64,000 nt of DNA, from NCBI GenBank assembly GCA_028280575.1, contig JANQLN010000050.1, positions 14,136 to 78,135 on the forward strand, in the 5' to 3' direction. Shown in pieces: positions 12,934 to 30,227 of the stretch. Position 1 is the first letter of the stretch; each line of letters opens with the position of its first letter. The position numbers and the translations under genes are program-made. Source of the stretch: Clostridia bacterium. Its GTDB lineage: Bacteria; Bacillota; Clostridia; Acetivibrionales; STF1-152. The notes beneath the pieces are model-generated. The model saw only the letters and a list, made by a program, of their open reading frames with translations. It made no database searches and was not told where the DNA came from.

Positions 12934-13719
12934 ATGTCTCAAGATAAAATGCATGAATTGAGTATTGATGATAGGAGAGACAAGATAGTAGATATTTTGA
13001 CCAGGCAAAATAAAGTCAGGGTAGCAGAGCTCAGCAGGATGTTTAAAATATCTGAAGCAACAATCAGGCATGACCTTTCCGACCTTGAAAAGCAAGGATT
13101 GCTCGAACGTGTCCACGGAGGTGCAACTAGTACTTATAAAGCTTACTATAACATGTCCTTTTATGAAAGAATGAAAACAAATGAAGATGAAAAAAGAAGT
13201 ATTGCTTTTAAAGCTGCAAAGATGATTTCAGAAGGCGATTCAATAATGATTAATTCAGGAACAACAACTCTTTACGTGGCAAGAGAGCTAAAAAGCATTA
13301 AAAATCTTACCGTTGTTACCAATTCATTGGCTATTTCTCAAGAGCTGGGCAATTATAAGGATATTCATGTTATTTTACTTGGAGGATATTTCAATCCACA
13401 GTATCAATTCACTTATGGTGATGATACGATAAATCAATTAAACAAGTATAAAGCCGATAAGCTGATCCTCGCCGTTGACGGCATTTGCTCTGAGAATGGA
13501 ATAACCACTTACCATTACCTTGAAGCAGAAATAAACAGACAGATGATAAAAAGGGTTGATAATACAGTGGTTGCTGCTGATTATACCAAGGTTGGAAGGA
13601 CAGGGTTTACCCAAATAGACAGTATAGACAGTGCAGATTTTCTCATTACCAACAGTGAAGCCGACGAGCATGAAATTAAAAAGATTATAAAAAAAGGCTT
13701 AGAAGTAGAACTTATATAA
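12934..13719 (+). CDS. DeoR/GlpR-family transcriptional repressor
   Basis: 261 aa. Winged HTH RRDKIVDILTRQNKVRVAELSRMFKISEATIRHDLSDLEKQGLLERVHGGA, followed by a DeoR C-terminal sugar-phosphate sensor domain (INSGTTT, VVTNS). Confidence 0.9.
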   Translation: MSQDKMHELSIDDRRDKIVDILTRQNKVRVAELSRMFKISEATIRHDLSDLEKQGLLERVHGGATSTYKAYYNMSFYERMKTNEDEKRSIAFKAAKMISEGDSIMINSGTTTLYVARELKSIKNLTVVTNSLAISQELGNYKDIHVILLGGYFNPQYQFTYGDDTINQLNKYKADKLILAVDGICSENGITTYHYLEAEINRQMIKRVDNTVVAADYTKVGRTGFTQIDSIDSADFLITNSEADEHEIKKIIKKGLEVELI

Positions 13720-13966: not shown

Positions 13967-15325
13967 ATGTATGATAGAAATTGGGCAAAAACAGATGCAG
14001 AAAAGCTGCCGGTAATCAAGACTGAATTACCCGGACCAAATTCAATTGAAATACATAGCAGGGCTTCAAAAAATATGAAGGGTTATTCAAGCCAGGTGAA
14101 GCTTTTCCCTGTTGCTTTTGAGTCAGGAAACGGTTGTACGCTTACTGATGTAGACGGTAATGTATTTATAGACTTTTCTTCTGGTATATATGTAACCGGT
14201 CTGGGACATTGCCATCCTAAAATAAGTGAAGAAATTGCAAAATACGCCAGGCAGCTTATGAACTGCCATGATTTTAATACTGAAACAAAAATGAAATTGC
14301 TGGAAAAGCTAGCTTCTATAACCATGGGCGATTTAAATGGTATTCAGCTTTATGATTCGGGAACTACTGCCGTAGAAGCCGGACTACGCTGCGCAAGAGC
14401 CGCTACGGGAAAATTTGAGTTTGTATCTTTCTGGAGGGATTTTCATGGAAAAACCATGGGCGCGGCCAGTTGTGCCATAGTAAACCAGAGCCAGGGAATG
14501 CGGGCTCCCGGATTCTTCCTTGCACCAAGGCCTAACTGCTACAGGTGTCCTTTTAAGATGAAGCACCCTGAGTGTAATTGTTATTGCGCGGATTTCCTTG
14601 AACAGGTTATTATAAATGAAACCAGCGGCCAATTGGCAGCGGTCGTACTTGAACCTATTCAAGGCTGGGGCGGCTCTATAATACCTCCTGATGATTTTAT
14701 GCCGAGGCTTAAGAATTTGTGTGACAAATACAACATGCTGCTGTTTACGGACGAGGTACTGACATGTATGGGCAGGACCGGAAAGATGTTTTGCATGGAA
14801 CACTGGGATATTACTCCTGATATAACTACCCTGGGGAAAGGATTTGGTAATGGATTCCCTGTAACGGCAATGTGTGTAAGCGACAAGTATAAGGAATCTG
14901 TTGAAAATATTTCCGCATCTTCAAGCTATGGTGGAAATCCAATGGCGTGTGCCGCTGCATTGGCATCAATTGAAGTAATTGAGGAAGAGAACTTATGTGA
15001 AAAGTCTGCACATCTGGGAGATGTATTCATAGAGCGAATGAATAAAATGAAGGAAGAGCATGCGATAATTGGAGATGTAAGAGGAAAGGGCTGCTTGCTT
15101 GCCATGGAGCTTGTTAAAGATAGAAATACGAAGGAGCCTTTTGAAGAGGCGGGTAAATTAGTATATCAAAAGGCATTTTCCAAAGGGCTTACATGGGTTC
15201 CGGCAGGACATATACTGAGAATATCACCTCCTATAATAATGGAGGATGATATGGCTTTAAAAGGATTGGATATAATTGAAGAGGCAGTTTCGGAAGTGGA
15301 AAAAGAGCTTGGGTATGCATTATAA
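13967..15325 (+). CDS. Class-III PLP-dependent aminotransferase
   Basis: 452 aa. Motifs SGTTAVEAGLR, DEVLTCMGRTGKMF, TLGKGFGNGFPV (PLP Lys), SSYGGNPMACAAAL. Confidence 0.85.
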   Translation: MYDRNWAKTDAEKLPVIKTELPGPNSIEIHSRASKNMKGYSSQVKLFPVAFESGNGCTLTDVDGNVFIDFSSGIYVTGLGHCHPKISEEIAKYARQLMNCHDFNTETKMKLLEKLASITMGDLNGIQLYDSGTTAVEAGLRCARAATGKFEFVSFWRDFHGKTMGAASCAIVNQSQGMRAPGFFLAPRPNCYRCPFKMKHPECNCYCADFLEQVIINETSGQLAAVVLEPIQGWGGSIIPPDDFMPRLKNLCDKYNMLLFTDEVLTCMGRTGKMFCMEHWDITPDITTLGKGFGNGFPVTAMCVSDKYKESVENISASSSYGGNPMACAAALASIEVIEEENLCEKSAHLGDVFIERMNKMKEEHAIIGDVRGKGCLLAMELVKDRNTKEPFEEAGKLVYQKAFSKGLTWVPAGHILRISPPIIMEDDMALKGLDIIEEAVSEVEKELGYAL

Positions 15326-15456
15326 CAGGCATAAGTTTTCGCAGAATAAAAAATGGGTAAGTTAAACAATAGTAAAATTGACAAACACAGATTGCGGTGC
15401 TATAGTGATATGAAAATCGGTTTCGTTATAATATTATTCGTTTTGGGAGCTTTTTC

Positions 15457-16920
15457 ATGTATTATTTATGTATTGACATTGGAACAACTGCAATTAAATG
15501 TGCAATTGTAGATAGGAATTATCAAATTGCTGCTGAAAAATCATCTGAATACAGGCTTATAAAAAAACCGGACGAAAAAGTGGAACAGGATGCAAATGAG
15601 TGGTGGAATGTTACTGTGAAAACAACAAGGAGCTTATTAGCGGATTCAGGTATTGCCGGTTCTTCTATTGACGCAGTCGGTATAAGCTCCCAGGGAATTT
15701 CATTTGTTCCTGTGGACAGGGAAATGAATCCCCTCATGAATGCAATATCATGGCTGGATACGAAAAGAGCGCAAACCCAAAGTGATTATATTATTGAAAG
15801 CATGGGGAATGATAAAATACAAAGAATAACAGGTTGCGGGGTTTCCTCAGGCAGAAATCTTGCCAAGCTGTTGTGGATAAGACAGGAATTCTATGGTCTC
15901 TTTAGAAGAATATATAAAATACTCACTGCTCATGATTATATTTTATACAGGCTGTGCGGAAAAATTGTGTCTGACCATACAATGGCAGGGAGCACACAGA
16001 TGTACGACATAAACTTAAGGGACTGGTCTGATCATATTCTGGATGCTTTTAACCTTGATAAGGACATGTTTCCGCAAATTATTGGGAGCGGAAGCTTTGC
16101 AGGCAGGATTGAGAAAAGGGCAGCAGATGAACTTGGAATCGGATATAATGCTGTTGTTGCGGCAGGAGGGCAGGACCAGAAATGTGCTGTTCTCGGGTCC
16201 GGAATTGATAAAGATAGTGTGGCGGTCTCTTTAGGGACTGCCTCTGCTATTTCCCGAAGAATTGACAGACCTTCCATTTTAAGCAATATGAGTATCCCAT
16301 GCTGTGTTGATGTTTTGAAAAACAAGTGGGTTATGGAAGGAGCAGTTGGAACTGCCGGCGCAGGCCTGAAGTGGATGAGAGATACCATATACAAGGGTAA
16401 AAGCTACCGTGAGCTTGACGCACTGGCGGAAAGAGCCAAAACCGGAAGCTTATTTTTTTATCCCCACATGTCCGGTGCTTCCACACCTGTAAATAATAAA
16501 AAAGTAAGGGGTTTTTTGTACGGCATTAATATTTCAACAAGTGAGGAAGAAATTATAAGAAGCTTTATGGAAGGTGTAGCTTACCAAATAAAATCCAATA
16601 TTGACATTATCTCCGAAACATTTGGGGAAACCAAGGGCATCCGTATATATGGAGGAGGGGCAAAAAGCCGTTTCTGGTTATCTGTTCTTGCAAATATAAC
16701 CGGAAAAAGGATTGAAGTCATAAAAAGCACCGAAACTGCATGTATTGGGGCCGCAATGCTTTGTTCCATGTGCACGGGTGAGTGGAAAGGAATAGAAAAA
16801 GCGTCGGAGTCGGTCAAAATAAAAAGTGTGATTGAACCTGAACCAAAAGAGCATGAATTTTATCAGGAGCTGTACTTTGAATATATTAGCATTCAGAATA
16901 AAATAATGGAACTTTTTTGA
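15457..16920 (+). CDS. FGGY-family carbohydrate kinase
   Basis: 487 aa. Motifs YLCIDIGTTAIKCAIVD, GISSQGISFVPVD, GGQDQKCA, IRIYGGGAKSRFW. Confidence 0.85.
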   Translation: MYYLCIDIGTTAIKCAIVDRNYQIAAEKSSEYRLIKKPDEKVEQDANEWWNVTVKTTRSLLADSGIAGSSIDAVGISSQGISFVPVDREMNPLMNAISWLDTKRAQTQSDYIIESMGNDKIQRITGCGVSSGRNLAKLLWIRQEFYGLFRRIYKILTAHDYILYRLCGKIVSDHTMAGSTQMYDINLRDWSDHILDAFNLDKDMFPQIIGSGSFAGRIEKRAADELGIGYNAVVAAGGQDQKCAVLGSGIDKDSVAVSLGTASAISRRIDRPSILSNMSIPCCVDVLKNKWVMEGAVGTAGAGLKWMRDTIYKGKSYRELDALAERAKTGSLFFYPHMSGASTPVNNKKVRGFLYGINISTSEEEIIRSFMEGVAYQIKSNIDIISETFGETKGIRIYGGGAKSRFWLSVLANITGKRIEVIKSTETACIGAAMLCSMCTGEWKGIEKASESVKIKSVIEPEPKEHEFYQELYFEYISIQNKIMELF

Positions 16921-16946
16921 TAAGTTTTAATTGAGCGGAGGTTTGT

Positions 16947-18257
16947 ATGAAAAGCTTAAGAGCAGGCGTATCAATATGCAGTATAAATCCTGACAAAGGA
17001 GTGGCGTTGGGCGGGTATCCGCATGCCGTAAGAAAAAACACAGGAGTTCACGACAGCATATATGCTGCGGTGTTATATCTTGACAGTGAAAATCCTGTTA
17101 TCATTGCAAGCCTTGACCTTCTTGGATTTTCCAAAGTTTATGCGGACAGGGTAAGGTGCAGAATTGCCGGGATAACCGGTATCAGCCGCAGTAATATAAT
17201 GATTATGTGTACTCACACCCATTCAAGTCCCTATGGTATGACTCTTTTAGATGTAAATGAAGCGAAGGATGCTGTTGATGAAGATTATGTTGAAATGGTA
17301 AGCAATAAACTCACCCAAGCCATATTGGATGCTGTGGAAAATACTTTTGCAGCCAGTATCGGTTTTGGTAAAGGAATATGCGGCAGGGAAAAAGGTGTTG
17401 GCGGAAACAGAAAAAATCCCCATGGAATTTCCGACCCGGAGGTCTGTGTGCTTGGGATAAAGGATGAAAATGGAGAGCTTAGAGCATGCATGGCAAATTA
17501 TGCACTTCACCCCACCTTTCTGCATGCGGAAAATCTCCTTGTTTCGGCTGATTACCCCGGATATATCAGAAAGCATCTTAATAAAGCACAGCCAGAAGCC
17601 GTTTTTTTATTTGCCCAGGGAGCATCGGGAGACCAGAGCTCAAGATACTTCAGGAATGAACAGAGCTTCGATGAGGCAAGAAGAGTTGGATATATGCTGG
17701 GAGAAGAAATATTAAGGGTACTTGGAAGCATCAATTATGAAAAGAGTGCGGATATTAGTATAAAAAATAAAGTTCTTGACAGCTGTTTAAGAGGATTTCC
17801 CTCAATTAAAGAAGCAGAAGAAAACCTTGAAAAAGTTTTAAATAAATACAAAAAAATGAAATTAGGTAATGGCGGTTATGCTGTTCTTAGAAATATGGAG
17901 TGTGATGTTTTTGGTGCAGAACGCACACTGGAATATGTAAAACTGATAATGGAAAATAAAAAGCTCCCCAGAATTCAAGAAGAGCATCCTTTGGAGATCA
18001 GCCTGATTCAAATTAATAACAGCCTTATGGTAATGCTGCAGGGAGAAGTGTTTGTAAGATTCGGGCAGGACATAAAAAAAGGGTCCCCCTTTGAGAACAC
18101 TTTTGTTGTTGAGATGGCGAACGGCGGCTCAGCAGGTTATATATATACAAAGGAAGCACTTGAGGAGTTTGGCGGATATGAAATCCAGTCTTCCCTGTAT
18201 TCCTGGGAAATGGGAGAAAGTATTGTAAGGGAAGTATTGAAGCTTATGAAATTTTAA
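16947..18257 (+). CDS. Neutral/alkaline ceramidase N-terminal-domain-like amidohydrolase
   Basis: 436 aa. Motifs LRAGVSICSINPDKGVALGGYPH...GVHDSIYAAVLYLD...IIASLDLLGF and CTHTHSSP match the pattern of bacterial ceramidase-like hypothetical proteins as I remember it. Confidence 0.55.
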   Translation: MKSLRAGVSICSINPDKGVALGGYPHAVRKNTGVHDSIYAAVLYLDSENPVIIASLDLLGFSKVYADRVRCRIAGITGISRSNIMIMCTHTHSSPYGMTLLDVNEAKDAVDEDYVEMVSNKLTQAILDAVENTFAASIGFGKGICGREKGVGGNRKNPHGISDPEVCVLGIKDENGELRACMANYALHPTFLHAENLLVSADYPGYIRKHLNKAQPEAVFLFAQGASGDQSSRYFRNEQSFDEARRVGYMLGEEILRVLGSINYEKSADISIKNKVLDSCLRGFPSIKEAEENLEKVLNKYKKMKLGNGGYAVLRNMECDVFGAERTLEYVKLIMENKKLPRIQEEHPLEISLIQINNSLMVMLQGEVFVRFGQDIKKGSPFENTFVVEMANGGSAGYIYTKEALEEFGGYEIQSSLYSWEMGESIVREVLKLMKF

Positions 18258-18393
18258 AAGATAAGGGATCATTGCAAATTTTAGAAAAAAGCATAATTTT
18301 TTTAAATGAGACACAAAATGCATATTGATAGGAATGGTGCTTATGGAAAACCGCCTTTTGAGTGATATTGGAAGGACAGGCACAAAGGTTATT

Positions 18394-19563
18394 ATGAATG
18401 GAAGAATAGTAACTGAGAATAATGTTATTGATGACGGTGTAATAATTGTCCGGGGAGACAGAATAAAAGCATTGGGGTGCAGATATGGCATTAATGTTCC
18501 GGCGGGTGCGGAAATCATTGATGCAAAAGGTAATCTTGTATGTCCCGGGTTTATTGACATCCACTGTCACGGCGGCGGCGGATTTTTGTTTAAGGATAAT
18601 GCGGACGCAGCATTGAAGGCACATTTAAGACATGGTACGACTTCGGTACTTGCCACACTTTCTTATCATATGACCGATAATGAGTACATTGAGACATTTC
18701 AAAAGCTTGAAAAGGTTATAAAAACAGACTATGGCAAGCAATGTATTGGAGTCAACATGGAAGGCCCGTATTTGAATCCCAGGTATGGGGCAGATACGAG
18801 TAAGGTTAGAGCCATTAAAGCCGAAGATTATGAGAGGGTGTATGAAGCAGGCAGGAAATTAATAAGAATATGGACTTTTGCACCTGAGCTTGACGGAGCA
18901 AAGGATTTTGCGGCTTTTTTGAAAAGTAAAAACATAATTCAGAGCGCAGGCCATTCCGAAGCGGATCATGAAACTGTGAATGAATTTATAAAAAACGGGC
19001 TTAGACTTGGCTGCCATCTGATGAATGCCATGGGATTTCCTCCGCCTTTTGTTTTCAAGGGAGCAATAAGGGAGGTAGGTATAGCAGAGGCACTGCTATG
19101 GGATGACGATACTTACGTGGAAGTAATTCCCGACTCAAAGGGTGTCCATGTGAGACCGCTTATGTTAAAGCTTATCCTGAAGCTTAAGGGGGTTAACAGG
19201 GTTGTTGCAATTTCAGATGCTTTTCTGGCTGGGGCACTTAAAGATCTGGAATATATAAAGGATGAAAAGGGACTTGAATATGTGCCCGATGAAGGTGATT
19301 TATACTATAACGGGTTAAATCAGCTATGTGGTTCCAGGCTGTCTATGGATTATGCAATAAGGAATATGATGAACCATACGGGTATAGGCTTTGTAGATGC
19401 GTTTAAAATAGGAGCTCTTAATGCTGCGGCGCTTCTTGGAATGGATGATGAGATAGGGAGCATTAGAGAAGGCAAGAAAGCAAATATAATAATTGCAGAT
19501 GAAAAAATGAATGTAAAGAATGTAATTCTGGAAGGCAGAAGGGTGCAATTATCAGGACTATAA
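18394..19563 (+). CDS. N-acetylhexosamine-6-phosphate deacetylase (NagA-family amidohydrolase)
   Basis: Motifs PGFIDIHCHGGGG, NMEGPYLN, AGHSEA. Starting at ATG 18394 (AAAGG upstream) gives the NagA-typical distance of about 57 aa from Met to DIH. The track start 18325 remains possible. Confidence 0.8.
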   Translation: MNGRIVTENNVIDDGVIIVRGDRIKALGCRYGINVPAGAEIIDAKGNLVCPGFIDIHCHGGGGFLFKDNADAALKAHLRHGTTSVLATLSYHMTDNEYIETFQKLEKVIKTDYGKQCIGVNMEGPYLNPRYGADTSKVRAIKAEDYERVYEAGRKLIRIWTFAPELDGAKDFAAFLKSKNIIQSAGHSEADHETVNEFIKNGLRLGCHLMNAMGFPPPFVFKGAIREVGIAEALLWDDDTYVEVIPDSKGVHVRPLMLKLILKLKGVNRVVAISDAFLAGALKDLEYIKDEKGLEYVPDEGDLYYNGLNQLCGSRLSMDYAIRNMMNHTGIGFVDAFKIGALNAAALLGMDDEIGSIREGKKANIIIADEKMNVKNVILEGRRVQLSGL

Positions 19564-19610
19564 ATCTGATAAAATAACGGATAAAAAACATTTTATGAGG
19601 TGAAGGTGTT

Positions 19611-20549
19611 ATGAGTAAATTTAATTTCAAACCGGCAGATTTTTGTCCGGTAAAGGACAGGGAATTGTTGGAAAGGCTGGCGAAAATGACTCCGGAGGAA
19701 ATTGAGCAGCATAAGAACCCGGATGTACGTATTAAAATCCTGGCAAATTACGGGCAGGTAGTGCTCACAGAAAAATTTTTGGGCATTAAGGAATCCTATG
19801 AGCAGAACAAGAAGTTTTCTACTATTTTTGGAAATCCGAATCCCAATTCACATATGCCGCTGGCCGAGCTTATCAATTTATACCGTATTGACTGCAAAAA
19901 CTGTGTTTTTGTTACAATGGATGAGTGGGCCGATGAGGATGGGAATGTGGCACCTGTCACCTATAAGGCAGGATTCACATATTCTTTCATGAAATACTTT
20001 ATCAACAAAATTGACCCGAAGCTGCGTCCGCTGCCGGAAAACATTGTTTATCCTACAACGGAAAACATCAATAGCTTTTCCGATATTATTGATGAAAAAA
20101 CGGACGGGGGAATTGACCTGTTTACTTCCGGTCCCGGTTGGGCGGGGCATATTGCCTTTATTGAACCGACCTTGGAGTATACACAGGTGCAAAGTGTTGA
20201 AGAATATTTGCAGCAGCCTGCGAAAATAGTGACCCTTCATCCTTTGACCATTGCGCAGAATTCCTTACACGGTGTTTTCGGGTGCTCCGGCAACGTTGCA
20301 AATGTTCCGCCCAAAGCAGCTACCATTGGCCCCAGGGATGTTCTGCATGCAAAAAAGAGGATTGAATCCCATGGGATAAGTATAATGGGGACATTTTCTT
20401 CATGGCAGCGCATGACATCCAGGCTGATCACCCACGGGCCGGTCACACCTATGGTTCCCGGTTCCATATACCAGGTGCTGCCATGTATCATCTATATAGA
20501 TCCCAATATTGCCAAGCCTGTTGAGTGCCTTGAGACAACAGGATACTAG
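19611..20549 (+). CDS. Glucosamine-6-phosphate deaminase/isomerase (NagB)-family protein, long form
   Basis: 312 aa. It aligns by eye to E. coli NagB: VTMDEW (MDEY), YSFMKYF, PENI, SGPGWAGHIAFIEP (GNDGHIAFNEP). It has an N-terminal extension of about 40 aa. Confidence 0.7.
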   Translation: MSKFNFKPADFCPVKDRELLERLAKMTPEEIEQHKNPDVRIKILANYGQVVLTEKFLGIKESYEQNKKFSTIFGNPNPNSHMPLAELINLYRIDCKNCVFVTMDEWADEDGNVAPVTYKAGFTYSFMKYFINKIDPKLRPLPENIVYPTTENINSFSDIIDEKTDGGIDLFTSGPGWAGHIAFIEPTLEYTQVQSVEEYLQQPAKIVTLHPLTIAQNSLHGVFGCSGNVANVPPKAATIGPRDVLHAKKRIESHGISIMGTFSSWQRMTSRLITHGPVTPMVPGSIYQVLPCIIYIDPNIAKPVECLETTGY

Positions 20550-20572
20550 TGTAAAAATGAGGAGTTGTGAAT

Positions 20573-21553
20573 ATGAATGAGACTTGTAATAAGGACAGCT
20601 TGATTATACATGACAAAGCCATCAGGCTTGCCGTCCTGGGAATGGTTGAAGGCAATGGGCACCCATACTCCTGGAGTGCTATAATCAACGGATATGACAA
20701 GGAGGAAATGGCAAAGTGCCCCTATCCGGGTATCCCTGAATATCTGGGATTGCAGCCGGAAGAGAACCTGGGGATACCGGGGGCTGTGGTATCCCATATA
20801 TGGACAGATAATCCGGAGGACGCAGAAAATGTGGCAAGGGCTTCTCTCATTGAGAATGTAGTGGGAAAACCGGAAGATGTAATTGGAGAGGTGGATGCCG
20901 TTATTATTCCTACAGACAGGGGATATGAGCATGTGGAAAGGGCAAGGCCATTTGTTGAAGCCGGATTTCCGGTTTTTATCGACAAGCCGATGGTAGATAA
21001 TGCAGAAGATTTGAAAACAATGGTTGAATGGGTCAAAGCCGGAGCAGCTATAATGTCGTCAAGTGCTGCAAGATTCTCAAAAGAATTCATGCCGTACTAC
21101 AAAAATACATATGAGCTTGGAAAAATCAGATTTGCCACAACAACAATGATAAAGAAGTGGGAGACATATGGAATACATGCACTTGAAGGCATATATCCTG
21201 TCTTTGGACCGGGGTTTGCATCGGTAAGGAATACGGGAAGGGAAGACAGCAATATTGTACATCTTAGACACAGCTGTGGAGCAGATATTGTAATAGCCGT
21301 AATAAAAGACATGCTCGGTTCATTCAACCTGATGCAGCTTTGCGGAACAAAGGGAAATGTATTTATCAGAAAACAGGATACGTTTTATTCATTTAAAGAA
21401 CAGATGGCAAGTTATATTGAATATTTGAAAACCGGTAAGAGGCCTTTTCCATTTGATGAAACAGTTGAACTAATGAAGCTTCTTATTGCAGGAATCATAA
21501 GCCGTAATGAAGGCGGAAGGGAAGTCATGCTGGAGGAAATAGAGGTGTACTAG
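20573..21553 (+). CDS. Gfo/Idh/MocA-like oxidoreductase, atypical N-terminus
   Basis: IRLAVLGMVEGNGHPYSWSAIINGY replaces the canonical GxGxxG. I place the start at ATG 20573 (GAGGAG 8 nt upstream). Confidence 0.6.
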   Translation: MNETCNKDSLIIHDKAIRLAVLGMVEGNGHPYSWSAIINGYDKEEMAKCPYPGIPEYLGLQPEENLGIPGAVVSHIWTDNPEDAENVARASLIENVVGKPEDVIGEVDAVIIPTDRGYEHVERARPFVEAGFPVFIDKPMVDNAEDLKTMVEWVKAGAAIMSSSAARFSKEFMPYYKNTYELGKIRFATTTMIKKWETYGIHALEGIYPVFGPGFASVRNTGREDSNIVHLRHSCGADIVIAVIKDMLGSFNLMQLCGTKGNVFIRKQDTFYSFKEQMASYIEYLKTGKRPFPFDETVELMKLLIAGIISRNEGGREVMLEEIEVY

Positions 21554-21570: not shown

Positions 21571-22353
21571 ATGAAAGTATTGGATAGTTTTTCTTTAATG
21601 GGAAAGGTGGCCCTGGTAACAGGCGGGGCAGGTAAATATGGAAAGCAGATAGCAGGTGCTTTGGCGGAGGCGGGAGCGGTAACATACATGGCATCCAGGA
21701 ATCTTGAAGCCCTTGAAAAAGAGGCAAAAGAGCATAGAGAAAAGGGTTATGACGTAACGGCCCTCCAATATGACCAGGCCGAAGAGGAGTCCATAATAGC
21801 ATTAAAAGATGAAATTCTCAGAAGAAGCGGTCGGATTGACGTACTGGTTAACAATGCTGTTGCAAGAATCATAAGAGGATGGGATGAAGAAGGTGAAAAG
21901 TTTGACCGGAGCCTTAAAGTGAATGCTACCGGCTTGTTCCTCATGTGCAGGGCATTTGGGGAAGAAATGTCAAAACAAAACGGCGGGTCTATTATAAATA
22001 TCGGGTCCATATATGGAATGGTTGGATATGATCCCGGTATTTATGAAGGTACGGATATGAAAATGGGAGGTCCTGCATACTGTTTTGAAAAGGGCGGCAT
22101 GATTAATTTTACCAGGCTTATTGGAAGCTATTATGGGAAAAACAATGTAAGATGCAACTGCATAAGCCCGGGTGGGTTCGGGACCCCTTCATTGAATGAA
22201 GTTTTTCATGACAGGTATAGAAAGAAGACCTTCCTTGGAAGGATGGCAAATGAAACCGACTTAAAGGGTATAATAGTATTTCTGGCATCGGATGCGTCAT
22301 TATATGTAACCGGAGCCAACATACCTGTTGACGGGGGCTATACTGCAAAGTAA
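21571..22353 (+). CDS. Short-chain dehydrogenase/reductase (SDR)
   Basis: 260 aa. Motifs KVALVTGGAGKYGKQIA, NNAV, NIGSIYG, YCFEKGG (YxxxK). Confidence 0.85.
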   Translation: MKVLDSFSLMGKVALVTGGAGKYGKQIAGALAEAGAVTYMASRNLEALEKEAKEHREKGYDVTALQYDQAEEESIIALKDEILRRSGRIDVLVNNAVARIIRGWDEEGEKFDRSLKVNATGLFLMCRAFGEEMSKQNGGSIINIGSIYGMVGYDPGIYEGTDMKMGGPAYCFEKGGMINFTRLIGSYYGKNNVRCNCISPGGFGTPSLNEVFHDRYRKKTFLGRMANETDLKGIIVFLASDASLYVTGANIPVDGGYTAK

Positions 22354-22546
22354 AATCGTATTAACCTGTAATAATTTTTAGAAAAATGTCAAGTAATACT
22401 ATAAAAATATCATTTAAAAACATGTGCGGATTATCTATAATTATAATTAAGTTATATGTTACAGATCACTAGTACTCTTAATAGCGCAAGAAAATATGCT
22501 GCAAGACACCTGTAAATTCAGGGTTACCAGGGTAGGAGGAAATTAC

Positions 22547-23476
22547 TTGGAAAAAGTGTTATCGGGAAGAAAAAGAAACATCCTTACACATTTAAGAAAA
22601 GACTACGATTTATATTTAATGGTATTACCTGCCATTGTTGTAGTTTTTATTTTTCATTACATTCCCATTTACGGAATTATAATAGCCTTTCAGGATTATA
22701 ATCCTTTTGACGGGTATGCAGGAAGTGAATTTGTCGGATTGGAGAATTTCATTGATTTTTTCAAAGACCCTTTTTCATTCAGGGTTATTAGAAATACTTT
22801 TTACCTTGGTGCATTAATGATTTTCTTTCGTTTTTGGCCGCCAATTTTGCTTGCGCTTCTGATAAATGAGCTGGCCAACCTTAAATTTAAAAGAACAGTC
22901 CAATCTATTTCCTATCTCCCTCACTTTATATCGACGGTTATTATCGTCGGAATGCTGTTCAGGTTTGTCTCGGTTGATGGCGGATTGGTTAATTCCCTGT
23001 TAAGTTCTCTTGGTATACAAAAAATAAATTTTACAGTATCACCGGAATGGTTCAGGCCGCTTTACATAATCAGCATGATATGGCAAAATGTAGGCTGGGG
23101 ATCGATTTTATATCTAGCTGCAATGGCCGGAATAAGCACAGAGTTATATGAAGCTGCTTATTGTGAAGGCGCAAACAGGTTCCAAAGAGTAAGGTTTATT
23201 ACAATACCCGGAATAACGCCAACGGTTATTATTTTACTGATTTTGAATATGAGAAACATTGTCAACATAGGCCTGGAAAAGGTTTTGCTGATGTATAATC
23301 CGGCAATTTATGAAACAGCAGATGTAATATCTACATATGTTTACAGAAAAGGCATTTTAGGAAGTGATCAAAGCTATGCCTCCGCTATTGGGCTTTTTAA
23401 TTCGGTCATGGCATTAATAGTGGTCCTGGCCGTTAACAAGATGGCCCAGAAATTTAGCGAAACAAGTTTATGGTAA
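22547..23476 (+). CDS. Carbohydrate ABC transporter permease (LplB/YesP type)
   Basis: Multi-TM protein with the EAA-like loop ELYEAAYCEGANRFQRVRFITIPG. I place the start at TTG 22547 (AGGAGG 7 nt upstream); the track ATG 22496 lacks an RBS. Confidence 0.85.
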   Translation: MEKVLSGRKRNILTHLRKDYDLYLMVLPAIVVVFIFHYIPIYGIIIAFQDYNPFDGYAGSEFVGLENFIDFFKDPFSFRVIRNTFYLGALMIFFRFWPPILLALLINELANLKFKRTVQSISYLPHFISTVIIVGMLFRFVSVDGGLVNSLLSSLGIQKINFTVSPEWFRPLYIISMIWQNVGWGSILYLAAMAGISTELYEAAYCEGANRFQRVRFITIPGITPTVIILLILNMRNIVNIGLEKVLLMYNPAIYETADVISTYVYRKGILGSDQSYASAIGLFNSVMALIVVLAVNKMAQKFSETSLW

Positions 23477-23499
23477 AAGGACGAAAGGACGGTGATGAA

Positions 23500-24414
23500 A
23501 TGGACATCATAAATGCACGGAAATCTCTTGGTTCTAAAATTTTTGATTTTATTAATATTACTGTCATGACAATTTTTTCGGTCATTATGTTATATCCGCT
23601 GGTTTATGTTTTAAGTATATCTATCAGCAATTCGGAAGCAGTTACTTTGGGAAAAGTATTTCTCTGGCCGGTTGGGTTTGATTTGACAGCTTATAAAATT
23701 GCACTTGTAAACCCTGATATATGGAATGCATACAAAAATACACTTATATATGTAGTGCTTGGTACTACTATCACAATAATGCTTAATACAATGGCTGCAT
23801 ATCCTTTATCAGTAAAGCAGTTTTATGGAAGAAAATACATAACTGTGTATTTTACCGTAACAATGTTTTTCAGCGGCGGGCTGATTCCCACATATCTTCT
23901 CATAAGCCGTCTGGGAATGATAGATACCATATGGGTTATGGTAATTCCCACATCGGTTACCGCATGGAATATTATTGTGTTCAGAACAAATTTCCAGGGG
24001 ATACCCGAATCATTAATTGAAGCTGCAAAGATGGAAGGTGCAAATTCATTCAGGATATACCTTCAGATAGTTATACCCTTATCAAAGCCTATAATAGCTA
24101 CAATTTCGCTTTTTACCGTTGTCGGAATATGGAATAACTTCTTTCAGGCTTTGATATATTTGAATGATAACAGGATGATACCCTTGCAAAACTATTTGAG
24201 AACATTAATAATAAGTGCGAATTTTGAGTCTCAAAGCATTGAAGAAAATCTGGAAGCAATAACACTTATGGGAAGCGGAAAAAGCATTGTCGGGCTCATG
24301 GAATCGATTAAGATGGCAGCAATACTTGTGAGCCTGGGTCCAATATTACTTGTTTATCCATTTGTACAAAAATATTTTGTTAAAGGAGTACTTGTAGGAG
24401 CAATAAAAGGATAA
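23500..24414 (+). CDS. Carbohydrate ABC transporter permease (LplC/YesQ type)
   Basis: Contains SLIEAAKMEGANSFRIYLQIVIPL. The start is probably ATG 23500; the track start 23470 overlaps the upstream stop. Confidence 0.85.
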   Translation: MDIINARKSLGSKIFDFINITVMTIFSVIMLYPLVYVLSISISNSEAVTLGKVFLWPVGFDLTAYKIALVNPDIWNAYKNTLIYVVLGTTITIMLNTMAAYPLSVKQFYGRKYITVYFTVTMFFSGGLIPTYLLISRLGMIDTIWVMVIPTSVTAWNIIVFRTNFQGIPESLIEAAKMEGANSFRIYLQIVIPLSKPIIATISLFTVVGIWNNFFQALIYLNDNRMIPLQNYLRTLIISANFESQSIEENLEAITLMGSGKSIVGLMESIKMAAILVSLGPILLVYPFVQKYFVKGVLVGAIKG

Positions 24415-24485
24415 TAAAGTTATTATTTACATATATTATATAATGATTTTATTATAAAATACTATGCTGCAAGGAGGAGATTTAA

Positions 24486-26165
24486 TTGAAGAAAATCTTG
24501 AAAGGGGTTTCCCTGGTAACGGCACTTTTGATTTTGATTTCTGTGTTATCAGCCTGTGGAGGCCGGAAAGATGAAAAAGACGGTACAACGCCGGAGAAGA
24601 CAACGACACAAGCGGAAGGAAATAAACAGAAACCTGCAGAAGAAACGGAAAAAATGAAGATTGACAAGGTATCTTATGTAATGAGGTCATGGAACCAGGT
24701 TCAGTGGGAAGATTCAAATTTTGACAAAATGGTGAAGGAGAGATTCGGGTTAGAACTTGATTTACAGGTAATTGACTTGAGTTCATACAGGGAAAAGTTC
24801 AGAGTAATGTTCAATACCAACAACCTGCCCGATGTCAGCACCGTATTCGGTATTGACATTTCATCGTTAAACCAGGCAGGTGACAGGGGACTTTTTCTAG
24901 ACTATTATGATTATATGGATGAAATGCCGGTACTCAGGAAAATAATAACAGATAACAAGCCTATCATACCCTATATTACAGCTGCTTCAGGAAGTCTGTA
25001 TTATTCACCTATCTATTATGGTGTTGGCTATAAGCTAGAAAATTATGGGTTTGGCGTAAGAAAGGATTTGCTTGACAAGGCAAGATTTGATTACAGCAAT
25101 TTAGAAAGCATGGATGACCTGTATGCCATGTATAAGGCTCTGAAAGAGCAGGCCCCGGAAAAATATGTCCTTGGAGCGAACCATGAACTAGTTAATATAT
25201 TTCGTGTAGGAGAGCTTATGGGCATAAGTGACGAACCGGCGACCTGGGATCCCAAAAAAGAAGAATGGATTAGAACATATGACCAGCCCGCGATGAAAGA
25301 TTTTCTCACTTTCTGGGCAAATGCTTACGAGGAGGGTATTCTCCACCCGGACTTTTTAACAATGCAAAGCAATGATATGTGGCAAAAGTGTTATAACGGT
25401 GAGCTGACGGCATATATAGAATATTTAAGACACATTGACATATGTAATGATAATGCATCTTCTGATGAAATGGAATGGACATATGTAATGCCTCCTTTAT
25501 ATAAAGGTGAAAAACATGGCATAGTGGCCATGCCCGGTTTTGGATGGGTAAATGCGAAAATTGTCAATTCCAGTACAAAGGTACCCGAAAAAGTTATGAA
25601 GTTTATTGATTGGACATATACCGATGAAGGATACCTTAGAAGCATGTTTGGTGAGGAGGGTGTTGATTATGCATTGCTGGAAAGTGATCCGGTCAAGTGG
25701 ATAGCATTGGATGAATCAAATAAGGATACTCTCCCTGAGGAATATCATGACAAACTGCTTTCGGTTGAGGAAATTGCAAAAAGGAAAGTCGAAGCTCCAT
25801 ACTTTTTATACGGATTCTATTCCAAAAGCAATACTTGGAACAGGTACCAAAAATGGAAAAGGCCATATGTTGATACAGTTTTTGAAGAAGCTCATCAAAG
25901 ATATATACAAGATGGTTGGTACAGCGACCCATCGCCAAATGTTGCACTGTTAGATGATGAACTGGAAGAATTCAATGACTTGAGCACAGCAATTAATGAT
26001 TATGCGATAGAAATGATTTCCAGAATAATTACAGGACAGGTTGACATAGGAAAATGGTCTGAAGTTGTTGATGAAATTTATCAAATGGATTATGACAGGC
26101 TAATGGAATTATATGAAATAAGCTATGAAAACTTTACAAAAGTTGAGCCAAAGTTTAATCCGTAA
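24486..26165 (+). CDS. Extracellular solute-binding lipoprotein (LplA-type, large family-1 SBP)
   Basis: 559 aa. TTG start with AGGAGGAG. Signal peptide plus lipobox LSACGG, then a Thr/Glu/Lys-rich linker. No ATPase gene is present in the locus, which is typical for this transporter type. Confidence 0.85.
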   Translation: MKKILKGVSLVTALLILISVLSACGGRKDEKDGTTPEKTTTQAEGNKQKPAEETEKMKIDKVSYVMRSWNQVQWEDSNFDKMVKERFGLELDLQVIDLSSYREKFRVMFNTNNLPDVSTVFGIDISSLNQAGDRGLFLDYYDYMDEMPVLRKIITDNKPIIPYITAASGSLYYSPIYYGVGYKLENYGFGVRKDLLDKARFDYSNLESMDDLYAMYKALKEQAPEKYVLGANHELVNIFRVGELMGISDEPATWDPKKEEWIRTYDQPAMKDFLTFWANAYEEGILHPDFLTMQSNDMWQKCYNGELTAYIEYLRHIDICNDNASSDEMEWTYVMPPLYKGEKHGIVAMPGFGWVNAKIVNSSTKVPEKVMKFIDWTYTDEGYLRSMFGEEGVDYALLESDPVKWIALDESNKDTLPEEYHDKLLSVEEIAKRKVEAPYFLYGFYSKSNTWNRYQKWKRPYVDTVFEEAHQRYIQDGWYSDPSPNVALLDDELEEFNDLSTAINDYAIEMISRIITGQVDIGKWSEVVDEIYQMDYDRLMELYEISYENFTKVEPKFNP

Positions 26166-26268: not shown

Positions 26269-27426
26269 ATGCCTGCTCAAAAAAATGAAAAAAGAAAAAT
26301 AACAGGATCTATATGGAAGACAGAAAAATGCATGTATGAAGAATTTGGTATTGAAGAGCCGGACCCTTTCAATACGGACCTTGATACACTTGCTGAGGTT
26401 TATGCCGAAATGAGGAATGCATTTGCAAGAAAGTATCCGGATTTGTGTCCCGAAGGTCCTGTTCATAAGCCTGTATATTCCATACCCCAGTATGACGGAA
26501 GAACAGTATGCTCAGTTGCCTATGGAGCTCAAAGACCGGTATGGGACGGTCGGACAAGGAGCTATTGGCATGATAGAAGTTATGTTCCATGGGCATGGGT
26601 AGAAACTGTAAAGGACGTTAGCAGTATAAAGGTTCCTGATTGGAGCAGTATTCCCATGGTTCAGGAGAATATTAAAAAATATGAGGAAGTAAGGTCAAAA
26701 ACCAAGTATACACTTGAAGCAAATACGCGTATTCAATGGAGTGAGTTAAGGTTTACACATCCATATACAAAGAAAAGCTATGCCTTCAATACTACTATGA
26801 GTTTTGTAGACCTGGGAGCATTTCTTTTTGGTGACACAAGATTTCTGGAGACATCTTTATCAGATGTTGACCTTACGAAAGCTCTTATGGAAAAATGCTT
26901 TGAAGTAACAGTAAGCTATCGTGATTACGTTAATAAGATGTATGGCTTAAAAGTTAAGGGTATGGCCAGCTTTGGAGGAGATTATTCATTCATGTTCTCA
27001 CCTGACATGTACAGGGAATATGCAATGGCATATGATGCAATGCGTGTTGAAAGATATGGTGATTTGCCATGCAATCTGCACTCCTGCGGGGCGTCTTCAC
27101 ATCTTTATGAAATATGGGGAACATATCCCAACAAGGATAATATTGTATTAATGCAGACAAGAGGAATTGAGGGTAAGTTGAAAGAATTGAGGTCTTCATT
27201 GCCGAATACTTTTCTGCAGATAACAATACACCAGCCCCAGTTTGATTTTGAAGAGGAAAGCGTAGAGAATATTGTTAAGCTTGTATGGCACTATGCAGAA
27301 GAAGCCGGATTCAAGGATCTCCATCTTACAGTTATAGTGTCGAAGACCAACGATGATGTGGAGAGGAATATCAGAGCTTTTTACAAGGTTATAGATGAAG
27401 TAAATGAGCATGCGTTAAGCCAATAA
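26269..27426 (+). CDS. Hypothetical protein, possibly a remote uroporphyrinogen-decarboxylase-fold (URO-D-like) TIM barrel
   Basis: 385 aa and clearly coding (long ORF inside an operon). My only functional hint is NLHSCGASSHLYEIWG, which resembles the HSCG strand of the URO-D-family protein at 41416. The function is not supported beyond that. Confidence 0.35.
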   Translation: MPAQKNEKRKITGSIWKTEKCMYEEFGIEEPDPFNTDLDTLAEVYAEMRNAFARKYPDLCPEGPVHKPVYSIPQYDGRTVCSVAYGAQRPVWDGRTRSYWHDRSYVPWAWVETVKDVSSIKVPDWSSIPMVQENIKKYEEVRSKTKYTLEANTRIQWSELRFTHPYTKKSYAFNTTMSFVDLGAFLFGDTRFLETSLSDVDLTKALMEKCFEVTVSYRDYVNKMYGLKVKGMASFGGDYSFMFSPDMYREYAMAYDAMRVERYGDLPCNLHSCGASSHLYEIWGTYPNKDNIVLMQTRGIEGKLKELRSSLPNTFLQITIHQPQFDFEEESVENIVKLVWHYAEEAGFKDLHLTVIVSKTNDDVERNIRAFYKVIDEVNEHALSQ

Positions 27427-27490
27427 TACGTCAGATAAATAAATTTAAGATTAACTGCACAGATTTTATATATTTATGAGGTGAATTACG

Positions 27491-29056: not shown

Positions 29057-29190
29057 AGTCCTCTTAGGAGGCTCCTGGATCGTTGTAAACTTTAATCAAA
29101 CAATTTTTTTAACTGTATGGAAAATTCAGAAATTTTGTAAAACTGCAGATGATTAATATGCTTTTAATTTATGGTATGGGAGAAGACAAT

Positions 29191-30204: not shown

Positions 30205-30227
30205 AATTTTAATCAGGAGGGATTCAG

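What the first reader, a model, noticed from the sequence alone, without database searches (positions are those of the whole stretch)
13967..20549. Aminotransferase + kinase + two distinct N-deacylases + NagB-like enzyme: signature of a doubly N-substituted sugar
The canonical GlcNAc/GalNAc routes need one deacetylase (NagA/AgaA) and one deaminase (NagB/AgaS). Here a second, unrelated amidohydrolase (ceramidase-fold-like, 16947-18257) and a class-III aminotransferase sit in the same translationally tight block. That arrangement would make sense if two amide or amine groups must be removed, as in a diacetamido sugar, or if the N-acyl group is not acetyl. The NagB-like protein is also atypical: it has an N-terminal extension of about 40 aa, and GPGWAGHIAFIEP replaces GNDGHIAFNEP.
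Basis: inference. Interest (0 to 1): 0.6.

Follow-up and report, generated by a model that had tools for sequence, protein, structure and literature searches.

The report
Mosaic amino-sugar operon with two amidases
The genes are really there and form a sugar-breakdown cluster that joins two recurring, uncharacterised gene modules from uncultured anaerobes, including a ceramidase-shaped amidase and a very conserved odd relative of glucosamine-phosphate deaminase, but which sugar it degrades is still unknown.

Summary

CerL keeps every Zn and catalytic residue of neutral ceramidase but lacks its C-terminal domain.

NagBL has the NagB fold and the catalytic Asp/His/Glu. It has lost Asp141 and all three phosphate-binding elements. 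Its family has more than 3,600 members and no Pfam model.

Comparative genomics changes the picture: the locus is a mosaic.
- **Module 1:** FGGY + second amidase + NagA-like + NagBL (± GFO/SDR) recurs in MAGs of Clostridia, Lentisphaerae, Kiritimatiellae and spirochaetes. The second amidase is CerL or a creatininase-fold enzyme. Of 13 loci with kinase and NagA-like, 11 have one of the two. AT3 occurs in 0 of 83 such loci.
- **Module 2:** AT3 has its own module, with DeoR, a 3-dehydrogenase-like GFO, FGGY, an isomerase, a class-I aldolase and again creatininase- or ceramidase-like hydrolases.
- **Joint occurrence:** the two modules meet in this window and in two other loci. In L102 the genes are translationally coupled.

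"Two amide bonds are cut" is well supported. "A diacetamido sugar" is plausible but unproven. This is a new variant of amino-sugar catabolism and a good lead for enzyme discovery.

The parts
12934..13719 (+). DeoR-family repressor (AgaR/GlpR-like, below every equivalog cutoff). It travels with the aminotransferase module.
   Evidence: PF08220 + PF00455. AgaR model 205.8 bits against cutoff 260. Homologues of 56-61% identity lie 1-2 genes from AT3 orthologues in L085-L088 and L093.
13967..15325 (+). Class-III (PLP) aminotransferase, AT3. It belongs to a separate recurrent module, and its amine substrate is unknown.
   Evidence: PF00202, 323 bits. No NCBIfam equivalog is reached (best PRK05769, 382 against 552). 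The closest solved structure is 7vno, followed by amino-acid racemases and GABA aminotransferases. The sequence carries TLGK291GF and ILR418ISPP. There are 131 related metagenome loci, of which 80 were read; 68 had an intact AT3 ORF. Neighbours: GFO in 19 of 68, DeoR in 16, FGGY in 16.
15378..15406 (+). Promoter-like site between AT3 and the kinase gene (TTGACA, 17 nt, TG-TATAGT).
   Evidence: 11 of 12 consensus positions plus an extended -10 TG. This is a consensus match only.
15457..16920 (+). FGGY-family sugar kinase of the subtype that sits next to amidase genes.
   Evidence: FGGY_N + FGGY_C. XylB 336.8 bits against cutoff 380. It is 40-43% identical to FGGY genes next to CerL or NagBL, 37-40% to those next to creatininase genes, and about 29-32% to FGGY genes in AT3 loci without an amidase.
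16947..18257 (+). CerL: a cytoplasmic Zn-amidohydrolase with the neutral-ceramidase catalytic fold and no C-terminal domain. Predicted second N-deacylase/amidase.
   Evidence: PF04734. AF2 model pLDDT 89.9. Foldseek finds only 2zws and 4wgk (E 5e-29, TMq 0.75). Zn and catalytic residues are conserved and invariant. It usually lies directly after an FGGY gene.
18325..19563 (+). NagA-like amidohydrolase (N-acetyl-sugar-phosphate deacetylase type).
   Evidence: TIGR00221 221.9 bits against cutoff 225.65. E 2e-38 to V. cholerae NagA. H80-x-H82, E146, H210, H231, D298 and R249 align with the NagA metal, catalytic and phosphate-Arg positions.
19611..20549 (+). NagBL: a divergent NagB-fold enzyme, predicted amino-sugar isomerase/deaminase with a remodelled distal (phosphate) site.
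   Evidence: No Pfam hit. Family of more than 3,600 proteins, 55-87% identical across phyla. Model pLDDT 84. Best fold matches are NagB, ahead of 6-phosphogluconolactonase. Residue mapping to E. coli NagB: D72→D104, H143→H180, E148→E185, D141→A178, R172→L219, K208→Q266, and loop 41-44 deleted.
20567..21553 (+). GFO/IDH/MocA oxidoreductase, part of the NagBL module.
   Evidence: PF01408. It is 71-74% identical and syntenic in L001 and L004. The spacer to the NagBL gene is 17 nt.
21571..22353 (+). SDR oxidoreductase (gluconate-5-dehydrogenase/KduD-like), part of the NagBL module.
   Evidence: PF13561/PF00106. PRK08213 199.7 bits against cutoff 279. It is 77% identical in L001 and L004.
22496..26165 (+). 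ABC sugar importer: two permeases (22496-23476, 23470-24414) and a 559-aa lipoprotein solute-binding protein (24486-26165).
   Evidence: ORFs and sequences. SBP_bac_1 hit for the binding protein. The permease assignment was made by eye from the sequences and was not scanned.
26269..31439 (+). A third, separable module: URO-D-like | 521-aa unknown protein (P521) | D-2-hydroxyacid dehydrogenase | enolase-superfamily acid-sugar dehydratase.
   Evidence: The same set (MR/MLE, P521-like, URO-D, 2-Hacid_dh) recurs without NagBL, CerL or AT3 in L169 and L170.

Best explanation
The region is a cytoplasmic catabolic locus for an imported N-acylated amino sugar or a glycan fragment containing one. It is assembled from separable modules.

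**Core module (15457-22353)**
- It probably has its own promoter.
- An FGGY kinase phosphorylates the sugar.
- Two unrelated metallo-amidases cut two different amide bonds. One is a ceramidase-fold Zn enzyme and the other is NagA-like.
- A NagB-fold enzyme converts the freed 2-amino aldose into a ketose plus ammonia. It keeps the isomerase-deaminase catalytic residues but not the GlcN-6-P phosphate site, so it probably acts on something other than GlcN-6-P, such as a 6-deoxy or differently phosphorylated amino sugar.
- GFO and SDR enzymes carry out keto/hydroxyl adjustments.

**Add-on (12934-15325)**
- The DeoR repressor and the class-III aminotransferase come from a sister module. There the aminotransferase works with a sugar 3-dehydrogenase-like GFO enzyme, a kinase, an isomerase, an aldolase and an amidase.
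- This adds a second way to remove nitrogen: amine to ketone, then reduction.
- In this locus the most economical substrate has two nitrogen substituents, for example a di-N-acyl diamino(deoxy)hexose.

**What is shown and what is inferred**
- Shown: gene content, folds, conserved active-site residues, recurrent co-localisation, and the mosaic structure.
- Inferred: every substrate, the order of steps, and the presence of two amines on one sugar.
For: - **Gene content and families:**
- **CerL:** only the neutral-ceramidase fold is found. Zn and catalytic residues are conserved and invariant.
- **NagA-like:** metal ligands, catalytic Asp and phosphate Arg are conserved.
- **NagBL:** NagB fold. 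D104, H180 and E185 are equivalent to NagB D72, H143 and E148; the phosphate ligands are lost.
- **Recurrence of the core:** within 5 kb of NagBL in 67 loci there is FGGY in 29, NagA-like in 28, CerL in 22 and a creatininase-fold gene in 10. Of 13 fully flanked loci with kinase and NagA-like, 11 have CerL or a creatininase-fold gene or both. CerL lies directly after FGGY in the window and in L166-L168.
- **GFO and SDR:** 71-77% identical and syntenic in the closest relatives.
- **AT3 module:**
- **Kinase subtype:** the FGGY subtype linked to amidases is shared by both modules.
- **Coupling of the two modules:** in L102 the genes creatininase-like | FGGY | AT3 | GFO overlap by 4 nt, with NagBL-like | Amidohydro_2 just upstream. 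L102 also has an Amidohydro_2-aminotransferase fusion protein. L112 also combines AT3, CerL and NagBL.
- **Paired paralogues:** some loci carry two NagBL paralogues with two amidases (L050-L055).
Against: - AT3 is absent from all 83 NagBL loci examined. Two amidases therefore usually go with a single amine-removing enzyme, so the second amide may not sit on a second sugar amine. It could be an aglycone, peptide or uronamide link, or an oligosaccharide-level deacetylation.
- AT3 is separated from the kinase by 131 nt that hold a strong promoter-like site.
- AT3's nearest characterised relatives act on amino acids.
- The creatininase family also includes a C-C hydrolase, IolN. Replacement of CerL by that fold is therefore not proof of amidase chemistry.
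- The window has no aldolase to finish a phosphorylative route.
- No member of the CerL, NagBL or AT3 subfamilies has been characterised in the sources searched.
- No shared operator motif was found.
Confidence: 0.4

Rival explanations
1. The substrate is an ordinary mono-amino HexNAc, with a two-level deacetylation. CerL (or the creatininase-fold enzyme elsewhere) deacylates the unphosphorylated sugar or the imported oligosaccharide, or cuts an amide to an aglycone or peptide. Possible targets include GlcNAc-Asn, muropeptides, uronamides or N-acyl groups other than acetyl. Kinase, NagA-like and NagBL then run a nagK/nagA/nagB-type route. The aminotransferase serves a different substrate, or the released amine, and is not needed for the sugar itself.
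For: - Most NagBL loci have two amidases, one NagBL and no aminotransferase.
- The NagA-like protein is nearly within the NagA equivalog score and keeps the phosphate Arg.
- An archaeal precedent for deacetylation before phosphorylation exists (my own knowledge of the Thermococcus chitin pathway).
- GDSL esterase, SIS, GH20 and sulfatase genes in related loci point to complex glycans.
Against: - NagBL has lost all three phosphate-binding elements of GlcN-6-P deaminase.
- The kinase is of FGGY type, and no HexNAc kinase of that type is known to me.
- AT3 recurs with amidases and the same kinase subtype, and is translationally coupled to them in L102.
Confidence: 0.3
2. The adjacency is a mosaic without a shared substrate. 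DeoR-AT3 is a remnant of a separate pathway that landed next to the kinase operon. The two units are transcribed and used independently.
For: - AT3 is found in 0 of 83 NagBL loci, and only 2 of 80 AT3 loci have NagBL.
- There is a strong promoter-like site in the AT3-kinase gap.
- The window lacks the GFO partner (c2 type), isomerase and aldolase of the AT3 module.
- The downstream genes 26269-31439 are also a transplantable module.
Against: - No terminator-like site follows AT3.
- DeoR is the only regulator next to the block.
- Independent re-association of AT3 with NagBL-like genes and amidases occurs in L102 and L112, with different gene orders and divergent sequences.
- Both modules share the amidase-linked FGGY subtype.
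Confidence: 0.2
3. NagBL is not a deaminase. It is a lactonase or sugar isomerase of the NagB/6-phosphogluconolactonase superfamily that works with GFO and SDR in an oxidative sugar-acid route, and the amidases act elsewhere.
For: - NagBL is most tightly conserved together with GFO and SDR in the nearest relatives.
- HpcH aldolase, aldo-keto reductase and acid-sugar dehydratase genes are frequent neighbours.
- Asp141 and the phosphate site are not conserved.
Against: - The fold is closer to NagB than to 6-phosphogluconolactonase (E 1e-15 against 1e-8).
- The NagB-specific catalytic Asp72, His143 and Glu148 equivalents are invariant.
- The most frequent partner genes are NagA-like and the kinase.
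Confidence: 0.1
4. CerL is a true ceramidase or lipid N-deacylase acting on sphingolipids or lipid A-type N-acyl glucosamine.
For: It has the ceramidase catalytic fold and residues.
Against: - It has no C-terminal domain. The profile alignment starts at about residue 8 of CerL against residue 8 of the crystallised 2zws chain, so there is no room for a signal peptide.
- It is embedded in cytoplasmic sugar operons directly after a sugar kinase.
- It is interchangeable with a small creatininase-fold hydrolase.
- The NCBIfam ceramidase equivalog scores 20.8 against a cutoff of 1200.
Confidence: 0.03

Closest known systems
Canonical GlcNAc/GalNAc catabolism (NagK or PTS, NagA, NagB; AgaA/AgaS)
   Same: It uses the same logic of kinase, amidohydrolase-superfamily deacetylase and isomerising deaminase. 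The NagA-like protein is close to NagA, and NagBL has the NagB fold and catalytic Asp/His/Glu.
   Different: - The kinase is of FGGY type rather than ROK or PTS.
- NagBL scores 34 bits against a cutoff of 237, lacks Asp141 and the phosphate ligands, and has an N-terminal extension of about 35 aa.
- An obligatory-looking second amidase and GFO/SDR enzymes are added.
Neutral/alkaline ceramidase (P. aeruginosa 2ZWS, human 4WGK)
   Same: The catalytic-domain fold and the His/His/Glu/Tyr Zn site, together with the His, Arg and Tyr catalytic residues.
   Different: It is about 440 aa with no C-terminal Ig-like domain. It is cytoplasmic, encoded in sugar operons, and only 15-18% identical. There is no evidence for a lipid substrate.
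Archaeal chitin pathway (Thermococcus Dac deacetylase, GlcN kinase, GlmD); my own knowledge
   Same: It is a precedent for deacetylating a non-phosphorylated sugar or oligosaccharide by a separate deacetylase, before phosphorylation and deamination.
   Different: All the enzyme families differ (PIG-L deacetylase, ADP-dependent kinase, GlmS-type deaminase).
Sulfoquinovose sulfo-EMP pathway and 6-deoxyhexose (fucose/rhamnose) pathways
   Same: The AT3 module carries a sulfoquinovose-isomerase-like isomerase, a sugar kinase and a DeoC/LacD class-I aldolase. FGGY kinases phosphorylate 6-deoxy-ketoses at C1 (my own knowledge).
   Different: There is no sulfonate chemistry here. An aminotransferase, a 3-dehydrogenase-like GFO enzyme and an amidase are added. 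All model scores are far below the equivalog cutoffs.
Kanosamine/aminocyclitol logic (GFO dehydrogenase plus aminotransferase) and ectoine degradation (hydrolase, deacetylase, class-III aminotransferase); my own knowledge
   Same: Both pair a GFO-type ketone/alcohol enzyme with an aminotransferase. The ectoine route also follows the sequence hydrolyse the amide, then transaminate.
   Different: The known sugar aminotransferases are of DegT type, not class III. Those pathways run in the biosynthetic direction or act on amino acids. No orthology was shown.

Membership tests
Glucosamine-6-phosphate deaminase NagB (TIGR00502 / PF01182) | Family HMM score above the curated cutoff | tested here: not met
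   TIGR00502 scores 34.4 bits against a cutoff of 236.9. There is no PF01182 hit.
Glucosamine-6-phosphate deaminase NagB (TIGR00502 / PF01182) | NagB alpha/beta fold | tested here: met
   The AF2 model has pLDDT 84. The top 26 Foldseek hits are NagB structures (E down to 4e-15, TM 0.6-0.8). 6-phosphogluconolactonases are weaker, at about E 1e-8.
Glucosamine-6-phosphate deaminase NagB (TIGR00502 / PF01182) | Catalytic base Asp72 and ring-opening His143/Glu148 | tested here: met
   hhalign against verified E. coli NagB gives D104, H180 and E185 (Asp in most members). D104 and H180 are invariant in A1, and position 185 is always acidic.
Glucosamine-6-phosphate deaminase NagB (TIGR00502 / PF01182) | Asp141 of the Asp-His-Glu triad | tested here: not met
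   Position 178 is Ala or Thr in the family.
Glucosamine-6-phosphate deaminase NagB (TIGR00502 / PF01182) | 6-phosphate site: loop 41-44 (TGGT), Arg172 and Lys208 | tested here: not met
   The loop is replaced by a GNPNP stretch that is 4 residues shorter. R172 aligns with L219 and K208 with Q266. The invariant H220 and R267 lie next to these positions and might substitute. No coordinates were available for a geometric check.
N-acetylglucosamine-6-phosphate deacetylase NagA (TIGR00221) | Equivalog HMM score above the cutoff | tested here: not met
   221.9 bits against a cutoff of 225.65, which is just below.
N-acetylglucosamine-6-phosphate deacetylase NagA (TIGR00221) | Metal ligands, catalytic Asp and phosphate-binding Arg | tested here: met
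   H80-x-H82, E146, H210, H231, D298 and R249 align with the corresponding positions of V. cholerae NagA 3egj. The assignment of residue roles comes from my own knowledge of E. coli and B. subtilis NagA.
Neutral ceramidase (PF04734 + C-terminal domain; NF041649) | Catalytic-domain fold | tested here: met
   Foldseek finds 2zws and 4wgk only (E 5e-29, TMq 0.75).
Neutral ceramidase (PF04734 + C-terminal domain; NF041649) | Zn ligands His97, His204, Glu411 and Tyr448, plus His99, Arg160 and Tyr460 | tested here: met
   H90, H188, E367, Y398, H92 and Y411 align and are invariant. N154-R155 probably equals N159-R160; the alignment there is shifted by a few residues.
Neutral ceramidase (PF04734 + C-terminal domain; NF041649) | C-terminal Ig-like domain and full-length equivalog score | tested here: not met
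   The protein ends at residue 436. The target TM-score is only 0.5 because the C-terminal domain of the target is unmatched. NF041649 scores 20.8 against a cutoff of 1200.
Neutral ceramidase (PF04734 + C-terminal domain; NF041649) | Hydrolysis of ceramide | not testable with these tools
   This needs an enzyme assay.
Class-III aminotransferase (PF00202) | Family HMM, PLP lysine and carboxylate-binding Arg motif | tested here: met
   PF00202 scores 323 bits over the full length. K291 lies in TLGKGF and R418 in ILRISPP. The roles of these motifs are from my own knowledge.
Class-III aminotransferase: specific subfamilies (GABA-AT, ArgD, ornithine-AT, PbfA lyase, racemases) | Equivalog score above the cutoff | tested here: not met
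   All 70 NCBIfam hits are below their cutoffs. The best is PRK05769, 381.8 against 552.
FGGY carbohydrate kinases | Both FGGY domains; xylulokinase equivalog | tested here: inconclusive
   PF00370 and PF02782 are met. XylB scores 336.8 against a cutoff of 380.25, so it is not met. The substrate is undetermined.

The most novel reading that the evidence does not exclude
The FGGY kinase, ceramidase-fold (or creatininase-fold) amidase, NagA-like deacetylase and phosphate-independent NagB-like deaminase form a widespread, undescribed pathway for bacterial di-N-acyl diamino-deoxyhexoses. Candidate substrates are bacillosamine-type sugars, including the aldolase products of pseudaminic- or legionaminic-type nonulosonic acids. 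In this reading the second amine is removed either by a second NagB-like paralogue or, as in this window, by a class-III aminotransferase plus a ketoreductase.
Probability: 0.15. Interest if true: 0.75.

Novelty: new variant of a known kind. Interest (0 to 1): 0.55.

Why it matters
- **Unassigned families.** Three large protein families in this locus have no assigned function: NagBL (more than 3,600 members, no Pfam model), the short ceramidase-fold amidases (about 800) and the 521-aa P521 family (more than 1,100). All are common in uncultured anaerobes that break down complex glycans in digesters, sediments and guts.
- **Experimental access.** The recurrent four-enzyme core gives an expressible set of enzymes for finding out how unusual bacterial or host amino sugars are recycled.
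- **New chemistry for known folds.** If the NagB-like enzyme works without the 6-phosphate handle, or the ceramidase fold has been recruited for soluble N-acyl sugars, both would extend well-known enzyme families.
- **Annotation.** These genes are currently labelled 'glucosamine-6-phosphate deaminase', 'neutral ceramidase' or 'hypothetical'. Better assignments would also improve metabolic models built from MAGs.

Tried and rejected
- **Literature.** Four full-text searches for ceramidase-like or creatininase enzymes with amino-sugar genes, and for diacetamido-sugar catabolism, found nothing relevant.
- **Source organism.** The organism is therefore unknown. The nearest NagBL genes are in Caldicoprobacterales and Clostridia MAGs.
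- **Shared DeoR operator.** A search of the five or so intergenic regions found only AT-rich 9-mers and nothing convincing.
- **P521.** No Pfam, PDB or NCBIfam assignment was obtained. A homologue search gave only hypothetical proteins.
- **A strict sialic-acid operon.** I considered this because DHDPS, DUF386 and BNR_2 genes occur in some relatives. I rejected it for this window, which has no lyase, NanE or NanK.
- **A true ceramidase role.** I considered and rejected this; the reasons are given under the rival explanations.

Full report
**1. What is in the window**

On the + strand lie a DeoR repressor (12934-13719), a class-III aminotransferase (AT3, 13967-15325) and an FGGY kinase (15457-16920). 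These are followed by a 436-aa protein matching only the N-terminal neutral-ceramidase domain (CerL, 16947-18257), a NagA-like amidohydrolase (18325-19563) and a 312-aa protein with only a faint NagB signal and no Pfam hit (NagBL, 19611-20549).

With 17-nt spacers come a GFO/IDH/MocA oxidoreductase (20567-21553) and an SDR (21571-22353). Then follow an ABC sugar importer (22496-26165), a URO-D-like protein, a 521-aa unknown protein (P521), a D-2-hydroxyacid dehydrogenase and an enolase-superfamily acid-sugar dehydratase, ending at 31439.

The gaps inside the block are 131, 26, 67 and 47 nt. The 131-nt gap after AT3 carries the best promoter-like site of the region, at 15378-15406.

**2. The ceramidase-like protein (CerL)**

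- It has about 800 relatives of roughly 440 aa. None carries a functional name beyond 'neutral ceramidase' or 'hypothetical'.
- An AlphaFold model built on a 25-sequence alignment is confident (pLDDT 89.9).
- Among solved structures it matches only the catalytic domains of P. aeruginosa and human neutral ceramidase (E 5e-29, TMq 0.75). It has nothing equivalent to their C-terminal domain.
- A profile alignment places H90, H188, E367 and Y398 on the Zn ligands H97, H204, E411 and Y448. It places H92 and Y411 on H99 and Y460. All are invariant in the family, as is an N154-R155 pair that probably equals N159-R160.
- The alignment begins at residue 8 of both proteins, so there is no signal peptide.

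CerL is therefore very probably an active cytoplasmic Zn-amidohydrolase, but not a ceramidase in the family sense.

**3. The NagB-like protein (NagBL)**

- The family is large (3,603 hits) and evolves slowly. Members are 55-87% identical across Clostridia, Lentisphaerae, Kiritimatiellae, Treponema and others, with no Pfam model.
- The model (pLDDT 84) is closest to GlcN-6-P deaminases (E about 1e-15). 6-phosphogluconolactonases are far weaker.
- I aligned the family against E. coli NagB. I had recalled that sequence from memory and verified it as 100% identical to 1CD5.
- The catalytic Asp72, His143 and Glu148 correspond to D104, H180 and E185.
- Asp141 is Ala or Thr. The phosphate loop 41-44 is deleted. 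Arg172 aligns with Leu219 and Lys208 with Gln266.
- The isomerase-deaminase chemistry is thus plausible, but the substrate is unlikely to be held like GlcN-6-P.

**4. The NagA-like protein and the kinase**

The NagA-like protein scores just under the NagA equivalog cutoff. It keeps the HxH, Glu, His, His and Asp residues and the phosphate Arg. The kinase is a generic xylulokinase-like FGGY member.

**5. Context of NagBL**

A scan of one genome per species found 427 loci, of which 80 were fetched. Nearly all are MAGs.

Within 5 kb of NagBL on the same strand, in 67 loci, the most frequent neighbours are:

| Neighbour | Loci |
|---|---|
| FGGY kinase | 29 |
| NagA-like | 28 |
| CerL | 22 |
| SDR | 15 |
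| Creatininase-fold hydrolase | 10 |
| SIS isomerase | 9 |
| Aldo-keto reductase | 8 |
| Tartrate-dehydrogenase-type IsoDH | 7 |
| HpcH aldolase, GFO, UPF0047, TPI-like, GDSL | 6 each |
| FSA aldolase | 4 |

DHDPS and DUF386 genes also occur.

Among the 29 loci with at least 5 kb on both sides, 13 have the kinase plus NagA-like. Of these, 11 also have CerL (5), the creatininase-fold protein (5) or both (1). The second hydrolase is therefore a conserved member of the module, supplied by either of two unrelated folds.

CerL almost always follows an FGGY gene directly, including in loci found through CerL itself. The closest relatives (L001, L003, L004) conserve NagBL at 82-85%, GFO at 71-74%, SDR at 77% and CerL at 58-62%.

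AT3 was found in none of the 83 loci.

**6. Context of AT3**

By sequence, AT3 belongs with archaeal ornithine/GABA-type aminotransferases and amino-acid racemases. No equivalog cutoff is met.

Its orthologues (60-85% identity; 131 metagenome loci, 80 fetched) sit in sugar loci. Their neighbours are:
- a GFO enzyme whose best model is levoglucosan/glycoside 3-dehydrogenase (19 of 68 loci);
- DeoR (16 loci; 56-61% identical to the window's DeoR in the nearest loci);
- an FGGY kinase (16 loci);
- a DeoC/LacD class-I aldolase;
- AraA/sulfoquinovose-isomerase-like isomerases;
- Amidohydro_2, creatininase-fold (5 loci) and ceramidase-like (4 loci) hydrolases;
- GH4, DUF5696 and DUF4432 proteins.

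This looks like a route of deacylation, transamination, keto-reduction, isomerisation, phosphorylation and aldol cleavage for an amino(deoxy)hexose. That route is an inference.

**7. How the modules relate**

The window's kinase is closest to FGGY genes next to CerL or NagBL (40-43%), then to those next to creatininase-fold genes, including in AT3 loci (37-40%). It is distant from FGGY genes in AT3 loci without an amidase (about 29-32%). An amidase-plus-kinase pair thus seems to be the common core. It is combined either with NagA-like/NagBL or with AT3/GFO.

Both combinations meet in the window, in L112 and in L102. In L102, the genes creatininase-like | FGGY | AT3 | GFO overlap by 4 nt. A NagBL-like gene and an Amidohydro_2 gene lie just upstream. 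The same contig holds an Amidohydro_2-aminotransferase fusion, a ceramidase-like gene, two M24/creatinase-like genes, an HpcH aldolase and URO-D genes. This argues for real functional coupling of the hydrolase and aminotransferase steps.

The downstream genes 26269-31439 are a third transplantable module.

**8. Interpretation**

- Well supported: this is a cytoplasmic amino-sugar catabolic locus of an unusual kind, in which two different amide bonds are hydrolysed.
- Less certain: both amides sit on amino groups of one sugar. Most relatives have two amidases but only one amine-removing enzyme.
- For this window, which has both a NagB-type and a transaminase-type nitrogen exit, a substrate with two nitrogen substituents is the most economical reading (about 0.4).
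- A specific diacetamido-trideoxyhexose is a minority guess (about 0.15).
- The rivals are a two-level deacetylation of an ordinary HexNAc glycan (0.3), a mosaic without a shared substrate (0.2), NagBL as a lactonase or isomerase (0.1) and a true lipid ceramidase (0.03). The first two overlap with the main reading.

**9. Novelty**

No characterised member of the CerL, NagBL, AT3 or P521 subfamilies was found in PDB, NCBIfam, Pfam or the literature searched. The system is a new variant of amino-sugar catabolism rather than a new category. It is of moderate-to-good interest as a lead for enzyme discovery.

Noticed in passing
window 27491-29056: P521 is a 521-aa protein with no Pfam, PDB or NCBIfam assignment. 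It belongs to a family of more than 1,100 proteins that are 58-68% identical across Planctomycetes, Verrucomicrobia, Clostridia and Paenibacillaceae. Some members are fused to an S9/esterase domain. It recurs with MR/MLE, URO-D, 2-Hacid_dh and GH172 genes in L169 and L170.
   Followed up: partly
L102 13404-15719: A 771-aa fusion of an Amidohydro_2 hydrolase with a class-III aminotransferase domain. It lies in an operon that also has creatininase-like | FGGY | AT3 | GFO genes overlapping by 4 nt.
   Followed up: partly
L050, L051, L053, L055 (about 1 kb either side of the match): Two NagB-like paralogues flank a creatininase-family gene, in the order FGGY | NagBL | creatininase | NagBL2 | NagA-like. 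DHDPS-type lyase genes lie nearby in L053 and L055, and a DUF386 gene lies near a DHDPS gene in L057.
   Followed up: no
window 13893-13945: An A-rich run of AAAAC/AAAACA-like units lies just upstream of the aminotransferase start codon.
   Followed up: no
window 29-1198, 4022-6519, 8776-9771: Surface-glycan biosynthesis genes lie just upstream of the catabolic locus: a truncated CysN-like domain fused to an adenylyl-sulfate kinase (CysC), WecB, a UDP-ManNAc-dehydrogenase-like enzyme and a PseB/FnlA-like UDP-GlcNAc 4,6-dehydratase. The organism may itself make 6-deoxy amino sugars.
   Followed up: partly
window 26183-26222: A long near-perfect hairpin lies directly after the solute-binding-protein gene, ahead of the URO-D-like gene. 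It probably marks a transcript boundary.
   Followed up: no
window 26269-27426 and 41416-42480: There are two URO-D-like genes. URO-D-like genes recur in CerL, NagBL and AT3 loci (L001, L003, L004, L102, L165, L168). Their role in sugar loci is unknown; decarboxylase or methyltransferase activity are possibilities.
   Followed up: partly
window 11691-12485 (- strand): A 264-aa ORF with paired CxxC motifs lies between the glycan-biosynthesis genes and the DeoR gene. It was not analysed.
   Followed up: no
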